Position numbers and translations under genes: made by a program. Of a stretch of 18,656 bases of DNA, positions 3,378 through 18,656 are shown piece after piece. Source of the DNA: an uncultured Bdellovibrionales bacterium (GTDB taxonomy: Bacteria; Bdellovibrionota_C; UBA2361; JBGSMV01). The notes under the pieces are model-generated. The model was not told the DNA's origin. It saw only the letters and a program-made list of their open reading frames with translations, and did not search any database. How positions within the stretch are numbered: the first letter of the stretch is position 1; the number at the start of each line of letters is the position of its first letter. The stretch is from the NCBI GenBank assembly GCA_964631745.1, contig CAZVWV010000022.1, forward strand, positions 15,640 through 34,295, read 5' to 3'.

Positions 3378-3388
3378 TGAGAAACAAG

Positions 3389-5510: not shown

Positions 5511-5609
5511 CATAACACCCGAATTCTCCCGTCAGCGGGGCGCGACCACTTTGGGTAATTTGGCTTGACTAAATGGCCCCGCTGCGGGAGATTCGGCAAC
5601 ACATTAGCT
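5511..5609 (+). repeat. attC-like site, family 1 copy A
   Basis: cATAACa ... CCGAaTTCTCCCGtCAGCGGGGC ... TTGACT ... GCCCCGCTGCGGGAGATTCGG ... cATTAGC. One of four ~95-bp copies (see 9575, 16385, 16779) that are about 80-90% identical. Imperfect dyad, with extra bases only in the 5' arm. Confidence 0.7.
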
Positions 5610-5629
5610 TGCTTGTATGTGATGGTATT

Positions 5630-6040: not shown

Positions 6041-6132
6041 CACCGGCCCGAAACTGACCGCGCCCCTTGAGTACTCGTGGCGCCATGATATTATATCTGG
6101 GGCGCGGCAGTTTTGGCCGCGAACCGTTATCC
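6035..6132 (+). repeat. attC-like site, family 4 copy a
   Basis: GATAACACCGGCCCGAAACTGACCGCGCCCC ... GGGGCGCGGCAGTTTTGGCCGCGAACCGTTATCC. About 85% identical to the copy at 9005-9101. Unpaired bases in the left arm. Confidence 0.65.
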
Positions 6133-6139
6133 ACTCATT

Positions 6140-6610
6140 ATGAACCAAACTAAAGCCGAGTATTACAAGAGCTTGCCGGCCAAGAGAATGGGCGCTGGCG
6201 TTCTTTTCTTTAATGATCAAAATGAACTCTTGCTCGTGCAACCAACCTACAAAGACACTTGGGAAATTCCAGGTGGCATTGTTGAACTAAGCGAATCACC
6301 GCGTGATGCAGTGCTCCGCGAAGTTCATGAGGAGCTAGGTTTAAAGATTGAACCTGAACTACTTAATTTTACATGCATTGAATATATGTCTGCGGGCAAA
6401 GAGATCTCGGAGTCCTTAATGTTTGTATTCTCGGGAGGGGTGCTTACTGAAAACATTATTAACCAGATTAACTTAGAATCTTCCGAACTCAAATCATTTA
6501 AGTTTGTTCCACCGAGTAGTATCACTGAATTTCTCGGACCAATTCTCGGGTCGAGAATCATAAAATGTCTTGAATCATCTAGTTGCTTTTACTCGGAAAA
6601 CAAATACTAG
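6140..6610 (+). CDS. NUDIX hydrolase
   Basis: Canonical Nudix box GGIVELSESPRDAVLREVHEELGL (Gx5Ex7REUxEExGU). I take the ATG at 6140 because the track's TTG at 6113 lies inside the attC. The TAG stop lies 5 nt before the next R''. Confidence 0.85.
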   Translation: MNQTKAEYYKSLPAKRMGAGVLFFNDQNELLLVQPTYKDTWEIPGGIVELSESPRDAVLREVHEELGLKIEPELLNFTCIEYMSAGKEISESLMFVFSGGVLTENIINQINLESSELKSFKFVPPSSITEFLGPILGSRIIKCLESSSCFYSENKY

Positions 6611-6613
6611 AGT

Positions 6614-6712
6614 GGATAACAAGCCGGTGCACTTGATGCGAAACTCTTGGCTTTTCCGGGTGTTTTGGGGCACTATTGGAGAGTTTCGCACAAGTGACCC
6701 TAAACTTTATCT
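6614..6712 (+). repeat. attC-like site, family 6
   Basis: GATAAC at 6615-6620. Arms GCACTTGaTGCGAAACTCTtGGC and GGAGAGTTTCGCACAAGTGA, with a ~26-nt loop. Variant R' is CTTTATC. Confidence 0.5.
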
Positions 6713-6721
6713 TCCTAACTT

Positions 6722-7276
6722 TTACTCACGCCCAAAACCGATCTTTCCCTTTCTCCCTCTCTGCATCGGTTCCTTCGGTTGAGCGTTAATTAACTCCCGA
6801 ATGCTATTGAACACCACTTTAAATTGGGCGTCATAACGCCGCTCTAGTTCGTCTAATCGTTTCGCGAACTCTTTGTTACTTGCTAGAATCTGCCGCATCC
6901 GGACAAACGCTCTGATGATCGCTATATTCACATGAATAGCTCTCTCACTATTCAAAACACTGGAAAGCATTGAAATTCCGTGCTCAGTGAACGCGTATGG
7001 CAGGTTTCGTCGGCCAGGCTTACCACTTGAGGTCACAATTTGTGACCGTAAAGCCGTGTATTCTTGGCTAGTTAGCTGAAACATGAAGTCCGCCGGGAAT
7101 CTTTCCACGTTTCGCTTTACAGCCTGTACCAGCGCCTTCGTTCTTACTTGGTAAAGTCTGGCTAGATCCTCGTCCAGCATTACCTTCTCACCTCTAATGA
7201 AGTAAATTGATTGCTCCAGCCGTTCAACAGGTATTACAGAACTGTTCTTTTTATTCATCGTTTCCCAAACTATCAT
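6722..7276 (-). CDS. ORF6N-domain (KilA-N-like / antirepressor-type DNA-binding) protein
   Basis: N-terminal IYFIRGEKVMLDEDLARLYQVRTKALVQAVKRNVERFPADFMFQLT is the ORF6N signature. The ORF is inverted within its cassette and sits next to the family-2 attC. Confidence 0.75.
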   Translation of the reverse strand: MIVWETMNKKNSSVIPVERLEQSIYFIRGEKVMLDEDLARLYQVRTKALVQAVKRNVERFPADFMFQLTSQEYTALRSQIVTSSGKPGRRNLPYAFTEHGISMLSSVLNSERAIHVNIAIIRAFVRMRQILASNKEFAKRLDELERRYDAQFKVVFNSIRELINAQPKEPMQRGRKGKIGFGRE

Positions 7277-7302
7277 GCCATTATCCGCTTAGACAACGCG
7301 GA

Positions 7303-7381
7303 AGATAACCATTGAATTCACGATATTTCGCGCTTTAGAATCAGTTTGGCGCGAAAATCGTGATTCAACAGAACGTTGGAC
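7303..7381 (+). repeat. attC-like site, family 2 copy a
   Basis: GATAACC ATTGAATTCACGATATTTCGCGC ... GGCGCGAAAATCGTGATTCAACA GAACGTTGGAC. The R' GTTGGAC is a perfect GTTRRRY. Confidence 0.65.
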
Positions 7382-7436
7382 TGAGCCGCGCAGTAGCGCG
7401 GAGGATCCTAAGCGAGAATTTGAATCGTAAGAGTAA

Positions 7437-7464
7437 GACCGGCACCGACCGGTCATTTTTTTTT
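7437..7464 (+). terminator. Rho-independent terminator at the 5' end of a cassette
   Basis: GACCGG-CACCGA-CCGGTC hairpin followed by a T9 run. It lies 60 nt after the cassette boundary within a conserved leader (7382-7465). A weaker copy lies at 14433-14515. Confidence 0.6.
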
Positions 7465-7645
7465 GCGAAAAGCGTGAGGATGTGTGCCGGTGGTTCAAGT
7501 CCCATCGCCGCCCCGACCGCCCGAACCTAGTGCCGAACCTAGTGTAGCTGAAAAGTAGAAAAGAATCTTGGCGAAAGTTCCATCCCTGATGGTGTAAAAG
7601 AGACCTGACTAAAGAAACTCATTTACAACCATCAGGGAGGAATTC

Positions 7646-8233
7646 ATGAACGATAAAAAAAGTACGCCACTTAGAGAGAAAATGAAAGCGGATTTAATGC
7701 TTCGGAATTATTCTAAGCCTTCTGAAGAGTTATATCTGTTTCATGTCAGGCGCTTTGCACAACACTATCACAAATCCCCAGGACATCTTGGACTAGACGA
7801 GATCCGGAGCTACCTGACGTACCTGCGCCAAGAAGCCAACGTATCGCAGTCATCGTATAAGCAAACGGTGGCAGCGCTCAAAGACGGCAACGTCTCTTTC
7901 TCCTACAAAGATTACAGAACTAACGAAAAGAAATTGATGACGCTGCCTGCTGTAGAGTTTATTCGGAGATTTCTGCTGCATGTGCTTCCAAACAAGTTCG
8001 TGAGGGTGCGCTACTACGGGTTCCTGACCAGGGCAAAGAAACTTGCCGCTCTGAGCACTATTAGAGAGGCGTTGGAGACCCATTCTCAAGCCCCGCCACC
8101 AAAACCTGCCACTACGCCCCATAGACACTGCTGCCCGGCCTGCAAGCTCGGGAAATTGGTCCACATTGGCCAAGTCCCACGCTGTTCGATTCCAGGCACT
8201 AGTCCACCAGCGCAACATACAGCCCTTTCTTAG
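7646..8233 (+). pseudogene. Degenerate chimeric ORF: tyrosine-recombinase (IntI/Xer-type) SAM-like N-terminal domain joined to the C-terminal segment of an IS91-family (Y2 HUH) transposase
   Basis: Residues 8-80 (LREKMKADLMLRNYSKPSEELYLFHVRRFAQHYH...VSQSSYKQTVAAL) fit the recombinase N-terminal SAM-like domain. Residues about 100-175 (EFIRRFLLHVLPNKFVRVRYYGFLTRAKK ... CCPACKLGKL) fit the Y2-transposase C-terminus with its terminal Zn motif. No catalytic domain sits between them. Confidence 0.45.
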
Positions 8234-8267
8234 CCAATCGCTCTTAGCTATACTAACTTCAATCGTT

Positions 8268-8394
8268 GGAGGCTGCGCGGCCCAGTCCAACGGGGTGTCG
8301 AGCCGCGATTCTCAGGCGAGAACGCTGCGGCAAGTTGGCACTCCTTGGCTGATAATCGCGGCCCAACACTAAACATTATCCCCTTTAGGCAGCC
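8268..8394 (+). repeat. attC-like site, family 3 copy 1; it has an extended outer palindrome
   Basis: GCGCGGCCCA GTCCAAC ... GAGCCGCGATTCTCAGGCGA ... GGCTGATAATCGCGGCCC AACACTAAACATTATCC. About 80% identical to 14966-15086. The 10 nt outside R'' are the reverse complement of the 10 nt that follow R' at the cassette start (7382-7391). Confidence 0.55.
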
Positions 8395-8663
8395 AGTTTT
8401 CTCTTGAGAACCTTAATCTCATTTTCAATCTGTTCAAGTCTCGAGGCAGCCGTCACTTTATCCGACATGCTTTCACTCAGAGTCCTGTTAATTAGCCGCT
8501 GATAAGGAATTCCACTCTCATCAGCCATAGCTCTTAGCTTTGCAAGAGTTTCGGCATTGATATTGATTGTAATTTTTATGCTCTTCTGGCGAGCCATCGC
8601 AGAACGTATTCGCTTGGTTTCAGCCCTATCGATTTTAAGATTTTTTAGGTTTGGTTTTTTCAT
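8385..8663 (-). CDS. brnA: BrnA antitoxin (CopG/RHH-type)
   Basis: MKKPNLKNLKIDRAETKRIRSAMARQKSIKITININAETLAKLRAMADESGIPYQRLIN. Starts at the internal Met of the track ORF and overlaps the end of brnT by about 29 nt. Confidence 0.7.
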   Translation of the reverse strand: MKKPNLKNLKIDRAETKRIRSAMARQKSIKITININAETLAKLRAMADESGIPYQRLINRTLSESMSDKVTAASRLEQIENEIKVLKRKLAA

Positions 8664-8922
8664 TGTATATTCTCCTAAACTCTCGCCATTCGGCCGACCC
8701 ATAAATTCGTACTTTTCCTTCTCGCCTTGTAAACCGAGTCGTAAGTATCTTCCCCGAACTCGATCTCCCCAACCAATAAAAACGCTCCTCATCCTGAGAA
8801 TGCTTATCATCTCTGATGGCAAATCCATCAGGATCGGAAAAAGACTCCGCGGCTTCGGAAAAACTCACCTTGTGCTTCCTAAGGTTTTCTTTAGCTTTGC
8901 CGGCGTCCCACTCGAAATCCAT
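8635..8922 (-). CDS. brnT: BrnT toxin (DUF497 ribonuclease family)
   Basis: MDFEWDAGKAKENLRKHKVSFSEAAESFSDP...DDKHSQDEERFYWLGRSSSGKILTTRFTRREGKVRIYGSAEW matches the BrnT pattern (FEWD..K...N..KHGVSF.EA, HS..EERF). The toxin lies upstream of the antitoxin, as in BrnTA. Confidence 0.8.
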   Translation of the reverse strand: MDFEWDAGKAKENLRKHKVSFSEAAESFSDPDGFAIRDDKHSQDEERFYWLGRSSSGKILTTRFTRREGKVRIYGSAEWREFRRIYNEKTKPKKS

Positions 8923-9004
8923 ATAAGCATGATTACCATACCTATGTGTATTTTACCATATAAACTGTAAGTTGGTGAAGATTTATTTTTTGGTTCCACG
9001 CAGG

Positions 9005-9101
9005 GGATAACACCGACCTTAAACTGACCGCGCCCATTGATTAGGGTTGCCAGTATGGTACCATTATGGGGCGCGGCAGTTTAGGCCGCAAAACGTTAGG
9101 C
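9005..9101 (+). repeat. attC-like site, family 4 copy b
   Basis: GATAACACCGACCTTAAACTGACCGCGCCC ... GGGGCGCGGCAGTTTAGGCCGCAAAACGTTAGGC. Perfect R' GTTAGGC. Extra T and A in the left arm. Confidence 0.7.
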
Positions 9102-9120
9102 AGCCTACGGAGAGAAACTT

Positions 9121-9580
9121 ATGCGAATGGTCCTGGACGAGAATTTCAAAATATCCATCGAGGGACGGAATGATTTCGATGGACGAATCCTATTTCTGAG
9201 CAAGAACTCTGGAATTGCGAGGATTGGCAACAAGGGCTGGGATTTTCGCGATGCAATTTTAGGCAGTGGTGAGGATTTTGCCATCGAGCTAATGGCGAAT
9301 GGGCAAGCAGCAGCTACCTTATCGTTTGAAAGAAATTCAGGCCATTCGATCGCGGTCCCTAGAAAGGGCGATAAAAATTGAGAATTTTCAATTGAACCTC
9401 GACCCAAACACTGAAGAGTGGATTCTTGAAAGTAAACAACACAAGCATGGATTCGGACAGCGAATTGGTTCTCGGATCGTCCTTAACATTAACGACGAGC
9501 ATTTAGTTCAGGAAATGGCGGAGGTAGTGGCGTTGAGTTTTATTGCTATTCAAGGCTGGGGCGGAATGAAGGCTGCCTAA
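9121..9580 (+). pseudogene. Unknown cassette gene apparently split by a +1 frameshift at an A5 run
   Basis: ORFs 9121..9381 and 9299..9580 are in frames 1 and 2. They overlap around GGGCGATAAAAATTGAG (about 9368-9375). Joined they give a protein of about 152 aa. The TAA stop at 9578-9580 is embedded in the CCTAAC R'' box. Confidence 0.45.
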
Positions 9581-9675
9581 CATCCGAGTGCTCCCGACAG
9601 CGGGGCCGCGGTCTGCTTTAGTAGTTTGTATTGACTTGAAGGCCCCGCTGCGGGAGATTCGGCATCACGTTGGAC
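9575..9675 (+). repeat. attC-like site, family 1 copy B
   Basis: GCCTAAC at 9575-9581 is a perfect RYYYAAC. CCGAGTgCTCCCGACAGCGGGGCCGCG ... TTGACTTGAAGGCCCCGCTGCGGGAGATTCGGCATCAC GTTGGAC. Perfect R' at 9669-9675. Confidence 0.8.
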
Positions 9676-9750
9676 TGCAAGTATTTTTGATTAGGAAGTC
9701 TGCCCATGATACACTTTTTATTATTAATTTAACATAATAGAGGTATTATT

Positions 9751-10134
9751 ATGAACTCACCACAAATGGAGTTTGCAGGAAATATCGGCGGATTACAAAA
9801 CTTTCTTAGCCAGTGTTCATCGGCAGCTTTGGCGATGGCAATACAACCAGAAATAACAAAAATTATGCAAAATCAATCCTTGGATTCCAATGCACCTTTA
9901 ACAGTGGATCTACTAAACACCTTGAGGCAGAGCTTATACAGTCGAAATGACGATCCAGATGCAAGACAAACAGATATTTTAATGATACTGGCCGATGCCT
10001 TGCGTGGAAAGGGCGTTTCGTCAGGGAATCCTATCGAAGATAGACTGCGTTTTGTAGAAATACTTCAAGATCAATTACAACGAAACGGCAGAGTCAATTT
10101 TCAGAGAGCACTCGCAGAGTCTATAGCAAGATAG
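9751..10134 (+). CDS. Hypothetical cassette protein (127 aa)
   Basis: ATG preceded by a GAGG-like Shine-Dalgarno within an AT-rich leader. No family recognised. Followed by a candidate attC at 10148-10235. Confidence 0.4.
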   Translation: MNSPQMEFAGNIGGLQNFLSQCSSAALAMAIQPEITKIMQNQSLDSNAPLTVDLLNTLRQSLYSRNDDPDARQTDILMILADALRGKGVSSGNPIEDRLRFVEILQDQLQRNGRVNFQRALAESIAR

Positions 10135-10147
10135 TGCAGGCTAACAA

Positions 10148-10235
10148 GTGGGCGCACTGGAGGCAAAATCCTGGGGCTTTCTTAGGAATTTTGTGACTGT
10201 TATGATGATTTTGCCCCAGTGGTTCTAAACGTTAA
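10148..10235 (+). repeat. Candidate attC-like site, family 9
   Basis: GGCTAAC ... GCGCACTGGaGGC / GCCCCAGTGGTTC imperfect dyad, with one extra A in the left arm. R' is AAACGTTAACC. Confidence 0.4.
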
Positions 10236-10256
10236 CCCCTTTTAGCAGTAATACCC
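10235..10256 (+). repeat. 22-bp direct copy of the tip of the Tn3-family IRR (ACCCCTTTTAGCAGTAATACCC)
   Basis: Identical to 12822-12843 and in the same orientation. It starts 5 nt after a cassette boundary and 13 nt before the tnpA ATG. Confidence 0.5.
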
Positions 10257-10268
10257 CTCCTTGACCAA

Positions 10269-12743
10269 TTGATGGAACCAAATGACGCGAGTTCGGCGAA
10301 GCTCACACGGTATCAGCTTACGCTCATGAAGAAATTCGCTCACTCCATTGCGCCATCTGCAATAAAGGAAAATGTCGAGCAGCTTGTAGCGCTGCGTGAA
10401 CTTTACCTTGAGATTCGAGCAGTATTAGAAGAGCTTGATCTTACCCGCGAAGGCATTCGTTACTTTGCGACCTACGTTTTAAAATCGCCTACTTGGAGGC
10501 TTTCTGCAAGAGAGGACCATGACCGATACTTGCACATGATAACTTTTGTTGCTCATCAGTACTATCAACTTCAAGATATCCTTGTCGATGTTTTGCTCAG
10601 CTCTGTAACGGCAATTAACAACGGCGCACGTCGTGAGCACAAAGATGGTTGCTACGAACAGCGGTCTCAAAAAAATAGCTCCCTTGCAAATGTGATTGAA
10701 ACAGTTGAGAAACTTCTCTCTGGCTATGCTGAGATTCACGATATCTTGCACAAAAAGGGACTACACTCGGATAAAAAAATAGAGCTTATCAAGGCTCTAC
10801 TTGATGAAAATGAAGCTGCTATCCGTAACGCCAGAAAGCATGTCATTAACCTCAAACAGGCATCTCAGCAGGTGGTTGAGAATGATTTCTACGCAATTCT
10901 GGAATCAAAGTCGGTCAAACTTCAAAATAGAGTCGCAGGGATTGTAAAAACGCTTGAGTTTAGATCTGACTGCTCTGATAAGCTGCTCTACAGCGCCATA
11001 TGTCACTATAGAGAGCACGCTACCCTCACTGAATCTGCACCATACGATTTCTTAAGTCCGGTTGAGCAGAATCTCTTGCACAGAGACGGTGGAAAGTTTC
11101 GAGTTCCGCTCTATAAAGTGCTGCTCTTTGGAAGAATCGCTGAAGCAATTCGGGCCGGGACCCTTAACTTAGACCACTCATACAAGTATCGCACTTTAGA
11201 AGAGTATCTAATCGCGCGGTGCGCTTGGGATGAGGGAAAAGATGTCCTCATAGAGCGCGCAAGCCTCCAAGTTGTTGAGAACTGTCCTAAAGTGCTTACC
11301 GATCTTCAAACCCGCCTAGCGCAATATTATCAGCTTACAAATCAGCGAATTTTAGATGGCGGCAATGAATTTGTTTCGGTCAAAAGTACCGGCGCTTATA
11401 CCGTGCAAACCCCGCCAGTAGCCGAGAAGATGGCTCCTGGCCTGCCTGAGTACTTTCCAGAGACTAAATTTATTTCTCTGCTTGAAATCCTTTCCACAAC
11501 CAATCAAGTAACAAATTTTCTAGCAGAATTTAAACGCTCAAAATTAAAGTATAATCGCGCACGACCAAGCGATCGGTCCTTTTTTGCCGGTTTACTCGGA
11601 TTTGGGTGCGGCATCGGTATAAAAAGAATCGCTCAAATCTCAAACCTCATCGACGAAGATGAGCTTGAAAGAACCGTAAACTGGCATTTTTCTTTAGATA
11701 ATGTTGAAGCTGCCAACGATAGAATTTTAGCCTTCATGGATAAGCTTGATCTCCCCTCGGTTTATCTCCAAGACCCAGAGTGGCGGCACACCTCAAGTGA
11801 CGGCCAAAAGGTAGAGGTGGCCGTGCCTTCGCTTAATGCCAATTACTCGTTTAAATATTTCGGCCAAGGTAAGGGCGTGAGCGTCTATAGCTTCATTGAT
11901 GAGAGACATTTTCTCTTTCACTCAACGGTAATTAGCTCAGCGGAACGGGAGGCCGCATATGTAATCGACGGCTTGATGCACAATGATGTTGTACAGAGCG
12001 ATATTCATTCAACTGATACTCACGGCTATACTGAAGTAATATTTGGCGCGACGCATCTTTTGGGATTCATGTTCGCCCCTCGAATCAAGAGTTTAGGGCG
12101 ACAACACCTCTATACCTTTCCTGGCAATACAAAAAAGCTGTACAAAGAAATGAAATACCCTATCCTGCCAGATGGCGTTATCAACATTCAATTAATCGCA
12201 GATAACTGGGATGAAATTCTGCGATTCGTGGCTACCATCAAACTAAAAGAAACCCCTGCTTCGCAGCTATTTAGACGACTTAACTCATACTCAAAATCGC
12301 ACCCTTTATGGGACGCTCTCAAAGAGTTTGGAAAAATTATAAAATCGATTTTCATCCTTCACTACATCGACGATCTCAATCTTCGCCAGGCAGTTGAGAA
12401 GCAGATGAACAAGATCGAAAGTGCTCAGAAGTTTTCAAACGCCGTGGCGTTCGGATCACAAGAATTTAGGCAGGCAGACCGAGAGGAGCAAAATATTGTC
12501 GCTGCTTGTCGCAGGCTTATTAAGAACGCCATCATCTGTTGGAACTACCTATACCTTTCGCAAAAAATTGTAGATGCGCCGAGCCCAGCGCAGAAAAATG
12601 AAATTATTGATGCCGTTCAAAACGGCTCAGTGGTCGCATGGCGGCACATTAATTTCTACGGGGAGTATGATTTCTCAGATGAAAAGCTCAGGGATTCTGT
12701 TGGAATTACTGCCCCTTCGGTTAGGAGTCTTAGAGTGGCTTGA
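10269..12743 (+). mobile_element. tnpA: Tn3-family transposase TnpA, N-terminally truncated relative to full-length (~1000 aa) TnpA
   Basis: 824 aa. Family motifs: RYLHMITFVAHQYYQLQDILVDVLL; SSDGQKVEV; HSTDTHGYTEVIFGATHLLGFMFAPRIKSLGRQHLYTF (DDE region). The first ~170 aa, the N-terminal DNA-binding region, are absent. No resolvase or res site nearby. Confidence 0.85.
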
Positions 12744-12805
12744 AATTCAAAAATGGGAGGGTCGTTTTTGAGTTAAGTTGCTGATCTGGCATAAGAATTC
12801 GGAAA

Positions 12806-12843
12806 TTCTGTGGCGGTTTTCACCCCTTTTAGCAGTAATACCC
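12806..12843 (-). mobile_element. Tn3-family 38-bp terminal inverted repeat (IRR)
   Basis: Read from the tip it is GGGTATTACTGCTAAAAGGGGTGAAAACCGCCACAGAA. It shares GGG at the tip, GCT at 11-13 and GAAAAC at 23-28 with the Tn3 IR (GGGGTCTGACGCTCAGTGGAACGAAAACTCACGTTAAG). It lies 63 bp past the tnpA stop. Confidence 0.55.
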
Positions 12844-12968
12844 AACGTTCGCTAGCGCAGCTTCTTTGCTTTTCAGTACGCTCGAAAGCATCGCTACTCC
12901 CTGTTCCGAGAAGGAGTACGGAGGAGTCCTACGGCCGCCCCAAGATCTTGATATGCCAAATTGGCATT

Positions 12969-13172
12969 TCAAGTCGGCAAGTTCTTGATTTGACAGCCGA
13001 AACATAAAATCCCCGGGAATCGATCTTTGTTTCGCCTAACCGCACGATTTAAATGCCCCGTTTCGACACAATAGAGTTCAGCCAAATCGGAATCTAGCAT
13101 CACGCGCTGCCCTCTGATCAGATAAATCAGGCTAGAAATCTCTTTTTTGATAACTGCGCTGGTTTTTGGCAT
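12969..13172 (-). pseudogene. Truncated ORF6N-domain gene; paralog of 6722..7276
   Basis: [38 protein letters not shown] aligns to ORF6N copy 1 up to 'RFP', then diverges and terminates at 67 aa. Its family-2 attC is retained upstream. Confidence 0.6.
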
Positions 13173-13233
13173 ATATATGTGAGTTTACCTTTAGTCAATG
13201 GAGGCGCCAAGGTCATATTGCAACAACGGTGCT

Positions 13234-13330
13234 GGCTAACAATTGAATTCACGAGATTTCGCGCCACTACCTTTAGTAGTTGCTTTGACATCCAGTTGGC
13301 GCGAAACTCCTGATTCAACATCACATTATG
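13234..13330 (+). repeat. attC-like site, family 2 copy b
   Basis: GGCTAAC AATTGAATTCACGAGATTTCGCGCC ... GGCGCGAAACTCCTGATTCAACA TCACATTATG. Variant R' is CATTATG. Confidence 0.6.
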
Positions 13331-13362
13331 CGCCCGCTCCACTGCTCATAAATTTAGCTGTT

Positions 13363-13725
13363 ATGCTTAATTCCACCTCACGAAAAAATCTAGGTAAAAT
13401 ATTCTTATGTTTGGTCATTATTTGGGTGGCAAAAGAAGGATATGAGTGGACTCGTTGTTTCTGCAGTACGGCAACGGATACGCGGGTGCTGATTGCGCAG
13501 TGCACCGAAGTTAAAAGAGAACTTCAACTTTATAAAGACAAACATGGTGCTTGGCCTAGGTCCTTGTTCGATGCGGGTATTTGGCCCATTAGCTATTTTG
13601 GAATTTGGCGTTATCGCCCGTCCTCCCTAGATTTTGATGGCCCAATGTTGGAAATTGGTTGCAGCGGCTGGCATATAGTAGGAACCTCGCCTGATGAAAA
13701 TGGTGATTGCGGAGCTTGGGATTGA
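13363..13725 (+). CDS. Hypothetical small protein with one N-terminal TM helix (weak pseudopilin-like motif)
   Basis: IFLCLVIIWVA hydrophobic helix; AQCTEVKRELQLYKDKHGAWPRSL loosely resembles a GspG/pilin segment. I take the ATG at 13363 because the track's start lies inside the attC. No Shine-Dalgarno. Confidence 0.35.
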   Translation: MLNSTSRKNLGKIFLCLVIIWVAKEGYEWTRCFCSTATDTRVLIAQCTEVKRELQLYKDKHGAWPRSLFDAGIWPISYFGIWRYRPSSLDFDGPMLEIGCSGWHIVGTSPDENGDCGAWD

Positions 13726-13732
13726 GTGCTCG

Positions 13733-13832
13733 CATAACCACCGCGTTGAAGGGAAACGCGACTCGCGAGCGGATTTCGAAATTTTAAGCGTTTGAGTGGG
13801 GCGCGTCCCCATCAGGCGGCAACCCATTATGC
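13733..13832 (+). repeat. attC-like site, family 8
   Basis: GCATAACC ... TGAAGGGAAACGCGaCtCgCG / GAGTGGGGCGCGTCCCCATCA imperfect dyad. Variant R' CATTATGCGC, the same 10-mer as at 13323-13332. Confidence 0.45.
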
Positions 13833-13833
13833 G

Positions 13834-14043
13834 CTAGCGCTTCCTGAGCTTGTTAGGATCTCGGCGGCAGTGGAAAACTGATACGACCACGATATGTTCG
13901 GTTTCTATCGAGAAAAATACCCCGAAGGGAAACTTTTTTAGCAAACATCGGCGAAGATCGTCGAAAGCAACTGAATATAACATAGGAGTTCTTGCAATCT
14001 TTGCCAAAGCAACATCAAGCGACCGAATAAATTCCGATCCCAA
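13834..14043 (-). CDS. ParE/RelE-family toxin, short (possibly N-terminally truncated)
   Basis: ...DDLRRCLLKKFPFGVFFSIETEHIVVVSVFHCRRDPNK matches the ParE C-terminal core. The ORF begins at TTG with an in-frame stop just upstream. It leaves an 80-bp gap to the antitoxin and lacks the usual ~25-aa N-terminal helix. Confidence 0.6.
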   Translation of the reverse strand: MGSEFIRSLDVALAKIARTPMLYSVAFDDLRRCLLKKFPFGVFFSIETEHIVVVSVFHCRRDPNKLRKR

Positions 14044-14123
14044 ACCATGTGCTTGCGTTTCCTACCAACGCGCAGCGGCTTCTAGTTCAGCAGAAGCCTT
14101 TTGGGTAAATCTAATTTCCACAA

Positions 14124-14345
14124 TTAAAGGCTGATTTTCTGCTTGAGATCCGACCATGAAATGCCGGTATCGGGGTCTCTCCTATAATGCGCAAGTCTAG
14201 CGCGCAATTCCACTTTTTGGTCTTCGCTGAGCTCAAGTGAATCTGGGAGCTGCTCTATGCTGTCCCAAATATCCTGAACAAGTTGAATTCGCTCTGAAAC
14301 GCTTAAGCCAAGAATCTCTTCTAGAAGTTCCTTTTCTTTGGGCAT
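14124..14345 (-). CDS. Antitoxin, 'putative addiction module component' (TIGR02574-like), partner of the ParE-like toxin
   Basis: LSVSERIQLVQDIWDSIEQLPDSLELSEDQKVELRARLAHYRRDPDTGISWSDLKQKI fits the LSxEERLxLIxxLWDSL...AxLDRRLAxYxxDP pattern of this antitoxin family. Located upstream of the toxin. Confidence 0.65.
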   Translation of the reverse strand: MPKEKELLEEILGLSVSERIQLVQDIWDSIEQLPDSLELSEDQKVELRARLAHYRRDPDTGISWSDLKQKISL

Positions 14346-14364
14346 CTGAGTATTGTATAGCTAA

Positions 14365-14432
14365 GCGCATAACAACGCAATCAATAGACATTTTGCTTCG
14401 CAAAATGCTATTGATTGCGCGATACGTTGGAC
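14365..14432 (+). repeat. Short attC-like site (~68 bp), family 7
   Basis: GCATAAC AACGCAATCAATAGaCATTTTGC ttcg GCAAAATGCTATTGATTGCGCGAT ACGTTGGAC. Perfect R' GTTGGAC. Extra base in the left arm. Confidence 0.7.
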
Positions 14433-14515
14433 TGAGCCGCGCTGGCGCGCGGAGGGGTGTAATTGAAACATTTATGGTTGAATTGGAATGATTCGTAAGA
14501 GACGGTCATTTTTTG
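14433..14515 (+). repeat. Conserved cassette-start leader (second copy) with CCGCGC-N4-GCGCGG hairpin and a degenerate terminator
   Basis: TGAGCCGCGCTGGCGCGCGGAGG...GAATTGGAATGATTCGTAAGAGACGGTCATTTTTTG, against 7382-7465 TGAGCCGCGCAGTAGCGCGGAGG...GAATTTGAATCGTAAGAGTAAGACCGGCACCGACCGGTCATTTTTTTTT. Confidence 0.6.
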
Positions 14516-14965
14516 TATACGAGATTAGGTGAAACGCCACTTCATGGCGCTGAAGGCGTCTTGCCTGACTTTTAATTGCGAATAGCGAGAAGCCTACTAA
14601 TTTCACTTGATATCTTTTGAAGAGCTGGCAGCATTGCTTCCCAAAAAGAGAAGCGGGCCTGTCGCGACTGCTTACTTACGTGCAGTCAGGAATGGAGATT
14701 CCTTTTTTACCGCCAGGGATGGCGGCGCCGCTTTAGACATAAACTGAGAGCGCGAATTGTGCTCAGACTCGGTGGGTAGGCCGAAGGCTTTTTGAAAGAA
14801 AAGCTATATTTCTTGGGGTGGGTTGTGCCTAATTGCAAAACTGAGAGATTTTTTATTACGTTAAATCAAATAGTTATTACTCTCCACATAAAAAACGCTG
14901 ACCAATCCCCATAGGCATAATCAGGCGTTGATTAACTATCTGGTTCCTTCAATAATCAAACCATT

Positions 14966-15086
14966 GTAGGCAGCGCGGCACAGTCCAACCGGGTGTCGAG
15001 CCGCGCTTCTCAGGCGAAGTTGCGGCACTGACTTCTCCCGTTTTGGCTGAGAACCGCGGCCCAACACTAAACATTAGGCAGACAGA
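14966..15086 (+). repeat. attC-like site, family 3 copy 2
   Basis: GCGCGGCACA GTCCAAC CGGGTGTCGAGCCGCGCTTCTCAGGCGA ... GGCTGAGAACCGCGGCCC AACACTAAACATTAGGCAG. Confidence 0.55.
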
Positions 15087-15091
15087 GCATT

Positions 15092-15883
15092 ATGCGTTGC
15101 GATTTTCCTATCCTTGAATACGATTCGGACCAGACAGCCCGTATCGAACCCACTGCTGTAGTGCCGGATGGCACGCTGCCTGAGATATGTATCATCTCGT
15201 TTTTCGCCGATGCTATTGAAAGGTTCGTCTCCAACGCCAACGCGACTGTGGCCTGTCGTTTTGACACGATGATAAGCTCGCATCCCGTCTATGAATTCTC
15301 CTACAAGGAGCGGCGGTTGGCCCTACTGCCAGCCGGGCTCGGTGGACCCCTTTCTGTTGGTCTTCTCGAGCACGCTATTGCTATGGGCTCGCGGTATTTT
15401 GTGGTGTGTGGCGCAGCGGGTGTTCTCAACAAAGAGATTGCAGCGGGACACCTGATTTTGCCAACAGCGGCGATACGGGATGAAGGAACGTCGTACCACT
15501 ACCTCCCGCCAGCTCGCGAAGTTGTGCCAAGTGCCGCAGCAGTAGCGGCTATTGGGAAAGTACTTGAAGATGCTAATATCCCGGTCGTTCGCGGAAAAAC
15601 ATGGACCACGGATGCATACTTTCGGGAAACGCGACGTAAGATTGAGTTGCGCCAGTCCGAGGACTGTATTTGTGTCGAAATGGAGGCGGCTGCCCTGTTT
15701 TCCGTCGCGGTGTTTCGCGGGGTTGATCTCGGCTATATCCTTTACGGAGGAGATTCCGTTGCCGGTGTTTGGGACCCACGAGAAGAGTTTGACCGTGCTG
15801 TGGTTCGCGAGAGGCTGATTCGCCTTTCCTGCGAAGCATGCTGTTTACTAGCCGATCAAACAAACGTTCTGAGGCATAAGTGA
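15092..15883 (+). CDS. Nucleoside phosphorylase-I family protein (PNP/UDP/MTAN-type phosphorylase domain)
   Basis: VEMEAAALFSVA matches the family's VEMEAAA[IL] active-site motif. The upstream segment LALLPAGLGGPLSVGLLEHAIAMGSRYFVVCGAAGVL...ILPTAAIRDEGTSYHY aligns with the DeoD/MTAN substrate-binding core. The ATG lies inside CATTATGCG. Confidence 0.7.
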   Translation: MRCDFPILEYDSDQTARIEPTAVVPDGTLPEICIISFFADAIERFVSNANATVACRFDTMISSHPVYEFSYKERRLALLPAGLGGPLSVGLLEHAIAMGSRYFVVCGAAGVLNKEIAAGHLILPTAAIRDEGTSYHYLPPAREVVPSAAAVAAIGKVLEDANIPVVRGKTWTTDAYFRETRRKIELRQSEDCICVEMEAAALFSVAVFRGVDLGYILYGGDSVAGVWDPREEFDRAVVRERLIRLSCEACCLLADQTNVLRHK

Positions 15884-15888
15884 GGGCT

Positions 15889-15983
15889 GCCTAACAATTG
15901 GAGCGAGCGGAGGAAAGGCCGCGAATGAAATTGATGATTTGTAGATTTGAAGTGGCCTTTCCCCGCTCCTCCTCGCCATTATC
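15889..15983 (+). repeat. attC-like site, family 5
   Basis: GCCTAAC (perfect RYYYAAC) AATTGGAGCGAGCGGaGGAAAGGCC ... GGCCTTTCCCCGCTCCTCCTCGC CATTATC. Confidence 0.55.
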
Positions 15984-16012
15984 CCGCCCTTTCGTTTGCA
16001 ACTTGTAATTTA

Positions 16013-16390
16013 ATGAATCAGGCCTTAACCCCCTATAGAGATGTCTTTCTGCGGTTGTTGAATGCTCTCCTGTTTCTGAGCTTAGTGGGTTTTCATGTCA
16101 TGCCAAAGTTATCGCTTATTATTATCGGCAATCAGCAACCTTCCGTTTTTCACATCGTCGCATTCGTAGTTTCAATTACGTCGGGATGTATTGCAGCGAA
16201 GTGGATAATAAAGCGGTTCTCCTTTGTTGAGCATTTAATTGTTTCATTTTGCCTTCTCCCACTTACAATTTGTGTGGCGGTAAGTTTACGGGAGGGTTTA
16301 ATATGGATTCTTATATTAGCTCTTTTCTCGCTTTTTAGTTATCTTCCTTACCGAAGAATCCAAAAAACAAGACCACCAAGCGCGGGATAA
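16013..16390 (+). CDS. Small integral membrane protein (about 4 TM helices), unknown function
   Basis: 125 aa with four hydrophobic segments. The TAA stop at 16388-16390 is embedded in the GATAAC R'' of attC-C. I take the ATG at 16013 because the track's start lies inside the preceding attC. Confidence 0.45.
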   Translation: MNQALTPYRDVFLRLLNALLFLSLVGFHVMPKLSLIIIGNQQPSVFHIVAFVVSITSGCIAAKWIIKRFSFVEHLIVSFCLLPLTICVAVSLREGLIWILILALFSLFSYLPYRRIQKTRPPSAG

Positions 16391-16485
16391 CCACCGAGTA
16401 CTCCCGATAGCGAGGCCGCGTTCTGCTTTGGTAATTTGAGTTGACTTGGAGGCCCCGCTGCGGGAGACTCGGCAAAACGTTAACC
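16385..16485 (+). repeat. attC-like site, family 1 copy C
   Basis: GATAACCA CCGAGTaCTCCCGAtAGCGaGGCCGCG ... TTGACTTGGAGGCCCCGCTGCGGGAGACTCGGCAAAAC GTTAACC. Confidence 0.75.
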
Positions 16486-16507
16486 CTCATTTAAAAATTC
16501 ATAGCAG

Positions 16508-16777
16508 ATGGGTATTGCAACCACTCTAATTATCTACGTCGCGCTCTTTCTCGTCATACGCCAGTCAGTTTTTATTATTGGCGAGAATCAGCGCGGAGTA
16601 ATTGTCCGGCTAGGGCGTTTCGAAAGAATTCATTATCCCGGGTTGCTTATTGTGGTTCCTTTCATGGACCGGGTTCACAAGATAGACTTGCCTGCACAAG
16701 TACCTGGTTGGGAGAAACTTTCTAAGGAGCAGCTTGATGCTAAGGTTCAGGAAATTGCTTTGAGCAAGATAGAATGA
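16508..16777 (+). CDS. SPFH/band-7 domain N-terminal fragment (89 aa)
   Basis: TM helix, then IIGENQRGVIVRLGRFERIHYPGLLIVVPFMDRVHKIDL, the start of the SPFH (stomatin/HflK/C) fold. Far shorter than functional SPFH proteins. The TGA stop lies 2 nt before the R'' of attC-D. Confidence 0.55.
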   Translation: MGIATTLIIYVALFLVIRQSVFIIGENQRGVIVRLGRFERIHYPGLLIVVPFMDRVHKIDLPAQVPGWEKLSKEQLDAKVQEIALSKIE

Positions 16778-16778
16778 G

Positions 16779-16879
16779 GGTTAACCACCGAGTTCTCCCG
16801 ACAGCAGGGCCACGATCATTAGTGGTAGTTCGAATTGACTAAGAAGCCCCGCTGCGGGAGACTCGGCAAAACGTTATGT
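16779..16879 (+). repeat. attC-like site, family 1 copy D (last attC of the array)
   Basis: GGTTAACCA CCGAGTtCTCCCGACAGCaGGGCCaCG ... TTGACTAAGAAGCCCCGCTGCGGGAGACTCGGCAAAAC GTTATGT. The R' overlaps the pepD stop codon. Confidence 0.75.
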
Positions 16880-18556
16880 GCGCTGACAAAGCTCACCTAG
16901 AAGTCCGACCAATCCGTTGAGGAAAGGCGGTACTGAACGCAACACCACACATTCGCGTAAGCCGTGAGCCCCAAGAATGGTGGGGCCTCTAGAATCTATC
17001 TCAAGCTCTGGATAAGCAGCTCTGGGAAAAGCAAACTCTAACCCACAGTGAGCTCCCTTGACGCGGGCCGGTTGGCCGCTATGAAGTTTTCCATGAGCAC
17101 GTTGAGCTATTTCAAGCAAAGAGCTGGATTCCCGCGGAGGTGACAATGGATATGTCTTTCCAAACTCAAATCTAAATTCACTATTTCGTAGTTCCGTTAG
17201 TATCGGCTCTTGCACTGACTCAATGCCTCCAGGTCGGTTGGATCGAGTCATGGTGAGCAGATTTACAGCATCATTCGTAGTTGAACTCAGGCTCCATGTA
17301 TTACTAGTAGCAACAAAGTCTTCGACTCCGTCCGGCAAAAATGCGGGAATTTCTGAGGCTCGCTCAATCACTCCATCAGCCATCGAACTTACGAGGTTCT
17401 GAAGTTTCCGCAAGAATCCAGAATCCATCACAGGGGGGAAAACAGGCTTTTTACTATCTTCGACTATTTCCACCTGAACAGAAATGTCATCTCCCTCGAG
17501 CTGTCTCGTTTGACGAGAAAGAGCTCGTTTTACTTGAGCACAAAAATCAGTGGCTTTTCCTTTATGACACCAAACGACCAAGGTAGCATCTGTGGGAATT
17601 GAACTTCGGCCAAGCCCTCCTTGTAGCGAAGCAAATCGAATTCCCTCGATATCAACGCCGTCTCCCAATGCTTCAAATAGAATCTTCTGCGCGTTGCCAT
17701 GGCCTTTATCAACATCCAAGCCACTGTGACCACCTTTCAAGCCAGTAAGAGATATATTAACAGGAACTTCATTTTCCGAACGCTCGTCACGAGACACGGG
17801 GAGTGTTATTTTTAAGTCTCTCCCTCCAGCTGCACTTATGAAGATGCCTTCTTCCTCCATGTCGAGATTGATCCAATATCTGCGCTGTACATCAGGATCT
17901 GATACGGTGCGAAGAAGGCCATAATCTAGTCCCTTTATGCCTTGCATGTCGCCCTCTTCGTCAGAGGTGAAGACAATTTCCAACGGCGGATGATCTATTC
18001 CCGGGGTCTGAAGCACAGCAAGAATGGCGCTCAGTGACAGATTGTTATCAGCCCCTAATGATCCTTCCTGTGCATATAGTACCCTCTCGCGCCTGCCTCG
18101 CTCAATCTCCCTGGACTCTACTGCTAATGTTCGCTTACAGCCAGCGTCAAAACCTTCGTAGCGCATATCAACAATGTCCATATGAACCTGTAAAACACTT
18201 GGGTCAGCGCCAACTCCACTCCCTCTTCCATCTGCATATAGAATCGCGTTGCCGACTTTGTCGATCTTCATCTGTCGAACCGGTATCAATCCGAGGGAGC
18301 CATCGTTGTAGTGCGGAAAAGCTAGCTGGGCGACATACTCTCGAACATGCCTTTCGTGACCTGACCTTCTGTCTAGTTGGCTGAGCGAGGCGAAGTGCGC
18401 AAACGTGGTCGTGCAAAGTTTCGTCGGGCAAAATGGCAGTAACTCTGCGGCCAATTGTCCGGTAAGAAGAGGGGATTCGGCCATCTGCTGAGCCAATTGC
18501 TGAGCTTGAGTGAATGAGGGCAGTTCTAGTCCAGGCAAATTGAATCCTCCGCGCAA
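16874..18556 (-). CDS. pepD: Aminoacyl-histidine (Xaa-His) dipeptidase PepD, M20 family
   Basis: VLQVHMDIV, LGADNNLSLSAILAVL...PLEIVFTSDEEGDMQG, LKGGHSGLDVDKGHGNA and HCGLEFAFP...YPELE...GPTILGAHGLRE align along the whole length with E. coli PepD motifs. Confidence 0.85.
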   Translation of the reverse strand: MRGGFNLPGLELPSFTQAQQLAQQMAESPLLTGQLAAELLPFCPTKLCTTTFAHFASLSQLDRRSGHERHVREYVAQLAFPHYNDGSLGLIPVRQMKIDKVGNAILYADGRGSGVGADPSVLQVHMDIVDMRYEGFDAGCKRTLAVESREIERGRRERVLYAQEGSLGADNNLSLSAILAVLQTPGIDHPPLEIVFTSDEEGDMQGIKGLDYGLLRTVSDPDVQRRYWINLDMEEEGIFISAAGGRDLKITLPVSRDERSENEVPVNISLTGLKGGHSGLDVDKGHGNAQKILFEALGDGVDIEGIRFASLQGGLGRSSIPTDATLVVWCHKGKATDFCAQVKRALSRQTRQLEGDDISVQVEIVEDSKKPVFPPVMDSGFLRKLQNLVSSMADGVIERASEIPAFLPDGVEDFVATSNTWSLSSTTNDAVNLLTMTRSNRPGGIESVQEPILTELRNSEFRFEFGKTYPLSPPRESSSLLEIAQRAHGKLHSGQPARVKGAHCGLEFAFPRAAYPELEIDSRGPTILGAHGLRECVVLRSVPPFLNGLVGLLGELCQRT

Positions 18557-18656
18557 TATCTTAGCAGTTTAAAGGACTTAATCAACGACTCAGTCACACT
18601 CCCTGCATTTCAGACACTAAAAAAAGAAGAAACCGCGGCCCCCCGTAGAGAAGGCT

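What the first reader, a model, noticed from the sequence alone, without database searches (positions are those of the whole stretch)
14433..15086. ORF-less cassette (about 650 bp) with nested GC hairpins, a candidate non-coding RNA cassette
No ORF of 60 aa or more exists in any frame between 14492 and 15066, although the unit is bounded by attC sites like its ORF-containing paralog. It contains GC-rich nested hairpins, for example 14533-14562 AACGCC/GCCA...TGGC/GGCGTC. Non-coding cassettes are known but poorly characterised. This one shares its 5' leader with a coding paralog, suggesting either cargo replacement or an sRNA function.
Basis: inference. Interest (0 to 1): 0.5.

Follow-up and report, generated by a model that had tools for sequence, protein, structure and literature searches.

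The report
Gene-less mini insertion sequence in integron array
The ORF-less unit is real, but its only conserved parts are the two ends of an IS91-family mobile element, so it is best read as a transposase-less relic filled with orphan DNA, not as a demonstrated RNA gene.

Summary
Window 14427-15073 (647 bp) lies exactly between two recombination crossovers in an attC array and holds no ORF above 46 aa.

The non-coding-RNA reading is not supported:
- Rfam gives nothing.
- No homologue of the 432-444-nt interior was found in any frame or as DNA.
- Whole-unit folding is unremarkable (z -1.7).
- The local hairpin excess is as strong on the minus strand.

The shared "5' leader" and "attC" are the left and right ends of an IS91-family insertion sequence of the subgroup that carries an integrase-like gene followed by a Y2 transposase gene. 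Related contigs show these ends around an intact gene pair (L005) or deleted remnants (L003, and the window's paralog at 7376-8375). Annotated rhizobial copies have the same end architecture.

- The first 18 nt pair with 14971-14988, extending the stem of the folded 3' site, with one compensatory change.
- That 3' site resembles an attC but lacks the single-base bulges seen in all 12 ordinary attCs of the window.

The unit keeps about what IS91 needs in cis, so it is most likely a non-autonomous mini-element. Any present effect is probably cis-regulatory on the downstream phosphorylase cassette. That is untested.

The parts
14367..14432 (+). Canonical attC of the upstream toxin-antitoxin cassette (R'' GCATAAC, R' GTTGGAC). 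The crossover G|TT lies between 14426 and 14427 and forms the left boundary of the unit.
   Evidence: Sequence. The bottom-strand fold has one single-base bulge on the 3' arm.
14427..15073 (+). The gene-less unit (647 nt): left end, orphan interior and right end.
   Evidence: Removing it would leave ...GATACG|TTAGGC..., an ordinary attC junction.
14427..14514 (+). It is homologous to 7376-7461, L005 117-203 (77%) and L003 from 430 (about the first 90 nt).
14427..14444 (+). 18-nt arm TTGGACTGAGCCGCGCTG, complementary to 14971-14988 with one mismatch. It extends the R stem of the folded site when the two ends are joined.
   Evidence: (I9). One compensatory T-A to A-T change relative to the paralog and L003. 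The L003 stem is a perfect 18 bp.
14437..14452 (+). Subterminal GC hairpin CCGCGC-TGGC-GCGCGG, 10 nt from the left terminus. Distant relatives keep a hairpin at the same position with different stem sequences.
14485..14514 (+). Imperfect hairpin plus T6 (14509-14514). It is the degraded counterpart of a clean terminator-like hairpin plus T-run in the paralog, L003 and L005.
14515..14946 (.). Orphan interior with no coding signal, no Rfam match and no homologue found.
14525..14568 (+).
   Evidence: z -3.16 on plus; z -2.78 on minus.
14627..14725 (.). Cluster of four consecutive short hairpins: 14627-14663, GACTGC..GCAGTC 14666-14687, AGGAAT-GGAG-ATTCCT 14688-14703 followed by T6 at 14704-14709, and CCGCCA-GGGA-TGGCGG 14710-14725.
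   Evidence: The excess stability appears on both strands.
14786..14814 (+). Hairpin GGCTTTTT-GAAA-GAAAAGCT followed by the T-rich tail ATATTTCTT (terminator-like, weak).
14827..14960 (+). Low-GC stretch (GC 0.26 at 14827-14901, 0.40-0.44 beyond) with sigma-70-like hexamers TTGATT-17-AATAAT at 14928-14956, pointing towards the right end and the downstream gene.
   Evidence: The count of promoter-like sites is at chance level (3 found, 1.8 +/- 1.0 expected).
14947..15073 (+). Right end, homologous to about 8255-8375 and to L003 about 1465-1587. It consists of the arm plus R'' (14971-14989), spacer CGG, an imperfect stem-loop (14993-15067), spacer TAAAC, and the terminal A (15073).
15073..15079 (+). 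R'-type box ATTAGGC. The crossover A|TT lies between 15073 and 15074, and TTAGGC is the first 6 nt of the next cassette.
   Evidence: The next cassette's own R'' is GCCTAAC at 15889.
7376..8375 (+). Paralog: a decayed copy of the same element family. Its 195-aa ORF (7646-8233) fuses the integrase N-terminal SAM-like domain to the last part of an IS91 transposase.
15092..15883 (+). Downstream phosphorylase-superfamily gene. Its ATG lies 18 nt after the cassette start, so it depends on transcription coming through or out of the gene-less unit.

Best explanation
Window 14427-15073 is a natural, transposase-less 'mini' derivative of an IS91-family insertion sequence. The parent subgroup carries an integron-integrase-like tyrosine recombinase gene directly followed by a Y2 (HUH) transposase gene.

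The unit sits at the G|TT crossover of an ordinary attC, so it looks like an integron cassette. Only its ends are conserved:
- Left end, about 88 nt: terminal TTGGAC, a GC hairpin 10 nt in, then a hairpin plus T-run.
- Right end, about 115-125 nt: an arm complementary to the first 18 nt, a GTCCAAC box, and a long imperfect stem-loop.

Shown: when the two ends are joined, as in an excised circle or single strand, they fold into an attC-like structure with an 18-bp extended stem.

Inferred: these ends are the cis signals for movement, supplied in trans by a family integrase/transposase or possibly by an integron integrase.

The 432-444-nt interior replaced the gene pair. It is orphan non-coding DNA with no detectable RNA-gene or protein signal.

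Inferred, weak: its most plausible present effect is on transcription of the promoterless phosphorylase cassette that starts 18 nt downstream. Sense-strand hairpin/T-run sites are followed by an AT-rich, promoter-like stretch.
For: Boundaries and lack of ORFs.

End homology with no interior homology inside the window.

Related contigs, found through the paralog's protein and fetched:
- L005 has the target-type leader (77% over 90 nt) after a canonical attC, followed by an intact 283-aa recombinase and the start of an IS91 transposase.
- L003 is a complete copy with both ends and a 252-aa deletion fusion.

Distant relatives (L007-L010) and three annotated rhizobial plasmid copies ('tyrosine-type recombinase/integrase' plus 'IS91 family transposase') show the same end layout. 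It consists of TTGRAC, 3-4 nt, a GC hairpin, then an arm complementary to the left end, a perfect or imperfect hairpin, and (A/G)|TT. Copy-to-copy homology stops exactly at these points.

Extended stem and compensatory change.

No bulged bases in the target, paralog, L003, L009, L010 or L011 sites. All 12 ordinary attCs of the window and the L003 and L005 upstream attCs have them.

The family recombinase is closest to integron integrase (TIGR02249, 211.6 bits, below the cut-off of 265). Against VchIntIA (2A3V), 15 residues stand where the integrase has 57 (182-238).

IS91 needs only 89 bp of the left end and 82 bp of the right end in cis. It has subterminal palindromes at both ends, makes no target duplication and forms circular intermediates (PMC13181058).

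Interior negatives:
- Rfam.
- Pfam, six frames.
- 5.8 billion proteins, six frames.
- Family proteins by tblastn.
- DNA against plasmids and phages.
- DNA against relatives.
- 5' UTR homology control.
- Codon usage and ribosome-binding sites.
- The 46-aa ORF gave only repeat-protein artefacts.
Against: - No relative of the interior exists in anything I could search, so neither function nor neutrality is shown.
- The target interior is not a simple deletion remnant of the known relatives, so how the cargo was swapped is unexplained.
- All four close-family insertions (target, paralog, L003, L005) sit exactly at attC crossovers. An ordinary IntI-moved cassette would look the same, so the enzyme that moved the unit cannot be told from sequence.
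- A|TT crossovers also occur in three ordinary attCs of this array (5511-5609, 13733-13832, 15889-15985), so that feature does not discriminate.
- The hairpin cluster (z -2.5 to -3.7) is unexplained.
- The extrahelical-base comparison rests on minimum-energy folds, not on a curated attC model.
Confidence: 0.6

Rival explanations
1. An ordinary integron cassette, moved by the host's integron integrase, that lost its gene and now acts as a cis-regulatory (promoter or insulator) cassette for the downstream phosphorylase cassette. This would match the gene-less cassettes of Vibrio superintegrons.
For: - It is bounded at (G/A)|TT crossovers in the same orientation as its neighbours.
- Its own site has R''-spacer-stem-spacer-R' architecture.
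- Own-start/R'' complementarity of 9-13 nt is normal for cassettes in this array, and 18 nt is the long end of that range.
- The downstream ATG is 18 nt into the next cassette.
- An AT-rich, promoter-like stretch lies at 14827-14960.
- Most of 29 tested gene-less Vibrio cassettes had sense-strand promoter activity (PMC11014356).
Against: - The same ends flank integrase-transposase pairs outside any cassette array (L009, L010, rhizobial plasmids).
- The site has no extrahelical bases, unlike all 12 ordinary attCs here.
- Promoter-like matches are at chance level, and in-silico promoter calls were shown to be unreliable for such cassettes.
- No integrase gene lies in the window.
Confidence: 0.22
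2. A cassette-borne small or structured RNA gene, transcribed from within the unit and acting in trans or in cis.
For: - Local hairpin excess: 14525-14568 z -3.2, 14607-14786 z about -2.5.
- A promoter-like site with extended -10 at 14463-14492, and hairpin/T-run sites at 14688-14709 and 14786-14814, could delimit an RNA of 200-320 nt.
Against: - No Rfam family matches, even at E<=10.
- The whole-unit fold is z -1.69.
- The hairpin excess is equal or stronger on the minus strand, so it is a DNA-level palindrome signal.
- No homologue exists to test covariation.
- The promoter-like site at 14463-14492 is not conserved in L005, L003 or the paralog.
Confidence: 0.08
3. A decayed protein-coding cassette, or a cassette encoding a short protein under 60 aa.
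For: - The family decays by internal deletions (L005 to L003 to paralog).
- A 46-aa ORF exists at 14607-14747.
Against: - Six-frame searches found nothing in Pfam or in 5.8 billion proteins at E<=0.1.
- There is no remnant of the family integrase or transposase.
- Plus-strand ORFs start only with TTG and none has a Shine-Dalgarno motif. Codon scores are about 0, against 0.13 for real genes.
- The exhaustive search with the 46-aa ORF hit only a 17-residue motif repeated nine times in an Ig-repeat protein, plus a TPR protein.
Confidence: 0.04

Closest known systems
IS91-family insertion sequences carrying an upstream tyrosine-recombinase gene (annotated example: Mesorhizobium sp. AR02 plasmid pMspAR02c, WP_258580584.1 plus WP_258580585.1), and laboratory mini-IS91 constructs (terIS-marker-oriIS)
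   Same: - Left end with a subterminal palindrome, right end with a longer subterminal palindrome.
- No target duplication.
- The insertion junction has T at the second position.
- Only about 90 nt of each end is retained, which is what IS91 needs in cis.
- Close relatives carry the integrase-transposase pair between the same ends.
   Different: - The target has no transposase or integrase and an unrelated 432-444-nt interior.
- Its clade is found only at attC crossovers (4 of 4 insertions), whereas the rhizobial copies sit at GA|TTCC outside arrays.
- The canonical IS91 target tetranucleotides (CTTG, GTTC) are not matched exactly.
Gene-less integron cassettes (Blanco et al. 2024, Nucleic Acids Res 52:2961, PMC11014356)
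   Same: - An attC-delimited unit in a chromosomal-type array with no ORF above 70 aa.
- It sits directly upstream of a cassette with no room for its own promoter.
   Different: - The recombination site lacks extrahelical bases.
- The ends belong to an insertion-sequence family.
- Promoter activity is untested.
attC-targeting mobile elements (IS1111-attC group of the IS110 family; group IIC-attC introns); recalled from the literature, not tested here
   Same: Mobile elements found inserted site-specifically and in a fixed orientation in attC sites of cassette arrays.
   Different: - Those use a DEDD transposase or a retro-homing ribozyme and insert inside the attC stem.
- This family has a Y2 transposase plus an integrase-like recombinase, and sits exactly at the G|TT crossover with its own attC-like site.
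- No group II intron signal was found.
MITEs and mobile insertion cassettes (IS ends around non-transposase DNA); recalled from the literature
   Same: Short, non-autonomous, keeps only IS termini and carries unrelated passenger DNA.
   Different: There is no target-site duplication. The right-hand repeat is subterminal, about 85 nt from the end, not terminal.

Membership tests
Integron gene cassette | Delimited by crossovers at G|TT in 7-bp core (R') boxes, in the same orientation as neighbouring cassettes | tested here: met
   The left junction is ACG|TTGGAC and the right junction is ACA|TTAGGC. The A|TT variant also occurs in three ordinary attCs of this array.
Integron gene cassette | Own attC with R''-L''...L'-R' imperfect palindrome and an unpaired central spacer | tested here: met
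   GTCCAAC-CGG-stem-loop-TAAAC-ATTAGGC. The bottom-strand fold is -23.5 kcal/mol against -20.3 for the top strand.
Integron gene cassette | Extrahelical (bulged) bases on the R''-L'' arm of the folded bottom strand | tested here: not met
   The target and paralog sites have none, only a symmetric 1x1 mismatch. All 12 other attCs in the window, and the L003 and L005 upstream attCs, have them. This is based on minimum-energy folds.
Integron gene cassette | First bases of the cassette complementary to its own R'' box (the site is reconstituted in the circle) | tested here: met
   18 nt with one mismatch, against 9-13 nt for other single cassettes.
Integron gene cassette | An integron integrase and attI adjacent to the array | tested here: inconclusive
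   No integrase gene lies in the window. The rest of the 34-kb source contig could not be fetched.
IS91 family (integrase-associated subgroup), non-autonomous derivative | Ends homologous to those flanking Y2 transposase genes | tested here: met
   Sequence homology to L005, L003 and the paralog. Architectural match to L009, L010 and L011-L013, whose copy boundaries coincide with these ends.
IS91 family (integrase-associated subgroup), non-autonomous derivative | Y2 (HUH) transposase gene | tested here: not met
   It is absent from the target with no remnant. This is why I call the unit a derivative and not a member.
IS91 family (integrase-associated subgroup), non-autonomous derivative | Subterminal palindrome at the left (terIS) end, one or two at the right (oriIS) end, and no target duplication (PMC13181058) | tested here: met
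   Hairpin 14437-14452, stem-loop 14993-15067. The flanks ACG and TTAGGC are not duplicated.
IS91 family (integrase-associated subgroup), non-autonomous derivative | Target tetranucleotide CTTG, GTTC or GTCC adjacent to oriIS | tested here: inconclusive
   The junctions read (A/G)TT(A/C/T). T at position 2 is kept, but the canonical tetranucleotides are not. GTCC and GTTC occur inside the R''-like box.
Promoter-bearing gene-less cassettes (Blanco et al. 2024) | No ORF above 70 aa | tested here: met
   The largest ORF is 46 aa.
Promoter-bearing gene-less cassettes (Blanco et al. 2024) | Measured promoter activity, mostly on the sense strand | not testable with these tools
   Only consensus matches at chance level were found. 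The paper shows that such prediction is unreliable.
Any curated RNA family (Rfam 15), including integron-borne sRNAs and group II introns | Covariance-model match | tested here: not met
   No match at gathering score in the window. The best match at E<=10 has E 0.14 and 20 bits, against a cut-off of 98.

The most novel reading that the evidence does not exclude
The unit and its relatives could point to a link between rolling-circle transposons and integrons.

An IS91 subgroup encodes a recombinase that is the nearest relative of integron integrase but lacks a roughly 40-residue segment. That segment is where the integrase, as recalled from the literature, contacts bulged bases. The joined ends of these elements fold into an attC-like site without bulged bases.

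One clade of the subgroup inserts exactly at attC crossovers. The gene-less unit would then be a trans-mobilisable mini-element, showing how arbitrary DNA can be packaged as a cassette. Its hairpin-rich interior could still be a functional RNA or a protein-binding module.
Probability: 0.2. Interest if true: 0.75.

Novelty: new variant of a known kind. Interest (0 to 1): 0.42.

Why it matters
For annotation: units in cassette arrays that look like ORF-less cassettes with shared leaders can be decayed or miniature insertion sequences. They should not be counted as candidate RNA genes or as evidence of cargo swapping by the integron.

For biology: the family context is the interesting part.
- An IS91 subgroup has an integron-integrase-like recombinase.
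- It has attC-like ends without bulged bases.
- In one clade, all four insertions seen are at attC crossovers.

If this holds up, it gives a concrete system for testing how single-stranded folded sites, HUH transposases and tyrosine recombinases cooperate. That bears on the open question of where attC sites and cassettes come from. The gene-less unit itself is a modest finding.

Tried and rejected
- Rfam at gathering score and at E<=10: nothing.
- tRNA/tmRNA and tandem repeats: none.
- A tRNA-like T-arm motif in the paralog's 5' region: not supported by ARAGORN.
- Pseudogene test by six-frame Pfam and six-frame search of 5.8 billion proteins: nothing.
The 46-aa ORF alone gave only repeat-protein artefacts.
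- blastn of the unit against plasmids and phages: no match.
- Close strains for comparison: neighbouring proteins are singleton clusters. The only other contigs holding the unit are 100% identical. The flanking peptidase has no relative above 30% identity, so no related array could be compared.
- Fetching the rest of the source contig failed.
- The idea that the interior is the parent's retained untranslated regions was rejected. The paralog, L003 and L005 5' regions still align (z 6-9) and the target does not (z about 0).
- The idea that the interior holds integrase or transposase remnants was rejected.
- My first crude attC finders failed, so sites were mapped by eye and by folding.
- An apparent truncated attC after the phosphorylase gene turned out to be a normal attC with an A|TTATCC box.
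- Literature searches for a description of integrase-bearing IS91 elements at attC sites found nothing specific.
- The run accessions are not mentioned in the held papers.

Full report
**1. Observation**

The window is an attC array on the plus strand, running from about 5.5 to 16.9 kb. I mapped 12 ordinary attCs by sequence and folding. They lie at 5511-5609, 6036-6133, 6614-6715, 7302-7382, 9006-9101, 9575-9675, 10139-10237, 13733-13832, 14367-14432, 15889-15985, 16386-16485 and 16780-16880.

The flagged unit runs from 14427 (...ATACG|TTGGAC) to 15073 (...CTAAACA|TTAGGC), 647 nt.

No ORF of 60 aa or more lies in 14492-15066. The largest internal ORF is 46 aa. This is the longest ORF-free gap in the window: 575 nt, against 404 nt for the next.

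The unit shares 14427-14514 with 7376-7461 and 14959-15076 with 8261-8378. The 444 nt in between match nothing else in the window.

The 'nested' hairpins at 14533-14562 are really two mutually exclusive pairings. The minimum-energy structure is one imperfect 17-bp hairpin at 14525-14568 (z -3.2).

**2. Is the interior a gene of any kind?**

RNA tests:
- Rfam gives nothing at gathering score. At E<=10 it gives only noise: best E 0.14, 20 bits against a cut-off of 98.
- There are no tRNA or tmRNA genes and no tandem repeats.
- The whole unit folds no better than shuffles (z -1.69).
- Windows 14607-14786 are modestly stable (z -2.5). The minus strand is equally or more stable (z -3.7 and -2.1). 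The signal is therefore a run of short DNA palindromes, not a strand-specific RNA fold.

Protein tests:
- Six-frame translations hit no Pfam family.
- They hit nothing among 5.8 billion proteins at E<=0.1.
- tblastn with the family's integrase and transposase finds no remnant.
- Plus-strand ORFs start only with TTG, none has a Shine-Dalgarno motif, and codon scores sit between coding and non-coding values.
- An exhaustive HMMER search with the 46-aa ORF returned only a 17-residue motif matched nine times in an Ig-repeat protein, and a TPR protein. Both are artefacts.

**3. Relatives**

Direct DNA routes failed:
- There is no match in plasmids or phages.
- Exact-pattern scans of the genome, metagenome and viral collections found nothing.
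- Neighbouring proteins are singleton clusters.
- The two other contigs carrying the unit are 100% identical to the window.
- The flanking peptidase has no relative above 30% identity. The host lineage is essentially unsampled.

The paralog's 195-aa ORF is an integrase N-terminal SAM-like domain fused to the end of a Y2 transposase. It did have close relatives, and I fetched their contigs:
- L003 is a complete copy of the paralog-type unit. It follows a canonical attC (...AAAACG|TTGGAC) and ends ...AACA|TTAGAC. It carries a 252-aa fusion ORF.
- L005 has a canonical attC, then a leader 77% identical to the target's leader, including the same TGGC hairpin loop. Next comes an intact 283-aa tyrosine recombinase, followed 4 nt later by the N-terminus of an IS91-family transposase.

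Both leader variants are therefore ancestrally attached to an integrase-transposase pair. The paralog, L003 and L005 form a series of nested internal deletions.

The target interior is not part of that series. The 5' untranslated regions of the paralog and L003 still align with that of L005 (z 6.3 and 8.7). The target aligns with none of them (z -0.7 to 0.1). Further searches of the interior against all fetched relatives also found nothing.

**4. What the shared ends are**

More distant members (L007-L010) and three annotated rhizobial plasmid copies share one end layout. The plasmid copies are labelled 'tyrosine-type recombinase/integrase' plus 'IS91 family transposase'.
- The element begins TTGRAC, then 3-4 nt, then a short GC hairpin whose stem sequence differs between lineages.
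- Downstream of the transposase gene lies an arm complementary to the left terminus. A GTYCAA box, a hairpin and a short spacer follow, ending in (A/G) before a target TT.
- In the plasmid copies, similarity between copies stops exactly at |TTGAAC and at ...CCAGA|TT.

These features match what is described for IS91-family ends (PMC13181058):
- a subterminal palindrome at terIS and one or two at oriIS;
- no target duplication;
- circular intermediates with joined ends;
- only 89 bp of the left end and 82 bp of the right end needed in cis.

The target retains about 88 nt and about 115-125 nt of the respective ends, and nothing else from the family.

**5. The folded site**

Joining the unit's right and left ends gives a structure like an attC, with an 18-bp extended outer stem (14427-14444 with 14971-14988).
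- Stem position 18 is T-A in the target and A-T in the paralog and L003.
- The L003 stem is perfect.
- The mismatch in the paralog is a G-T wobble only on the bottom strand.

Other single cassettes of this array pair 9-13 nt in the same way, so this is the long end of a general property.

The site differs from the 12 ordinary attCs. All of those show one or two unmatched bases on the R''-L'' arm of the bottom-strand fold, as do the L003 and L005 upstream attCs. The target, paralog, L003, L009, L010 and L011 sites show none.

The terminal A|TT is not diagnostic, because three ordinary attCs here also have it.

The family recombinase is closest to integron integrase:
- TIGR02249 scores 211.6 bits, below the cut-off of 265.
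- The best solved structure is VchIntIA (2A3V).
- 15 residues stand where VchIntIA has 57 (182-238).

From established knowledge, integron integrases carry an extra segment in this part of the protein that contacts the extrahelical bases. I did not test whether the missing residues are that segment, so the link to bulge-free sites is inference only.

**6. Interpretation**

The best reading is a non-autonomous mini-derivative of this IS91 subgroup, lying at an attC crossover.

Its ends are the constrained, functional parts. Movement would need enzymes in trans, and none is encoded in the window; the paralog is also defective.

I cannot tell whether the family's own enzymes or an integron integrase placed it. 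All four close-family insertions are exactly at attC G|TT sites, which fits either attC targeting or IntI-mediated capture.

The interior is orphan DNA. A cis effect on transcription is plausible but untested:
- Sense-strand hairpin/T-run sites lie at 14485-14514, 14688-14709 and 14786-14814.
- A low-GC stretch follows at 14827-14960 (GC 0.26 up to 14901), with TTGATT-17-AATAAT at 14928-14956.
- The downstream phosphorylase ATG lies 18 nt past the boundary.

Most gene-less Vibrio cassettes proved to be sense promoters, but such activity could not be predicted in silico (PMC11014356).

**7. Verdict**

- Observation: confirmed.
- ncRNA interpretation: unsupported.
- 'Cargo replacement': supported.
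- 'attC-bounded cassette': only partly right.

The unit itself is of modest interest. The family context deserves follow-up.

Noticed in passing
window 7376-8375; L003 430-1587; L005 117-1485: The 'coding paralog' is a decayed insertion sequence. Its 195-aa ORF joins integrase residues ...TVAAL to transposase ...KDGNVSF.... L003 has a smaller deletion (252 aa). The window copy looks derived from an L003-like copy by a second deletion between GCGCTCA and GCTCTCA microhomologies.
   Followed up: partly
L005 390-1241 (P0041); L010; L011-L013: The recombinase of this IS91 subgroup is closest to integron integrase (TIGR02249, 2A3V), but 15 residues stand where VchIntIA has 57 (182-238). The elements' joined ends fold like an attC without bulged bases. 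This suggests possible kinship between the subgroup and integron recombination.
   Followed up: partly
window 14426/14427 and 7375/7376; L003 429/430; L005 116/117: All four insertions of the close family lie exactly at the G|TT crossover of canonical attCs that have bulged bases. Distant relatives (L009, L010, rhizobial plasmids) sit at other (A/G)|TT sites outside arrays.
   Followed up: partly
window 5511-5609, 13733-13832, 15889-15985 (also 6614-6715): Three ordinary attCs have A|TT instead of the canonical G|TT at the crossover. One further attC appears to have C|TT. With the two family sites, that is about a third of the array.
   Followed up: no
window 10232-12843: An 824-aa Tn3-family DDE transposase ORF (10269-12743) lies inside the array. 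It is flanked by 25-nt direct repeats TT(A/C)ACCCCTTTTAGCAGTAATACCC at 10232-10256 and 12819-12843. The first repeat starts exactly at a cassette boundary.
   Followed up: no
window 1-18656: No integrase gene lies in the window. The array is flanked by ordinary genes (ferritin-like and YdbH-like on the left, an M20-type peptidase on the right). The peptidase's best non-self relative is 30% identical and the cassette proteins are singleton clusters, so the host lineage is essentially unsampled.
   Followed up: partly
window 4856-4937: Repeated CAATTGACCGATA / TATCGGTCAAT(T) motifs lie upstream of the first cassette-like ORF and look like an operator.
   Followed up: no
L010 131-2154 and 4603-6154: Two integrase-plus-IS91-transposase copies sit in opposite orientation on one 6.8-kb contig. 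Their right ends are near-identical and diverge immediately after ...CCTGA|TT.
   Followed up: partly
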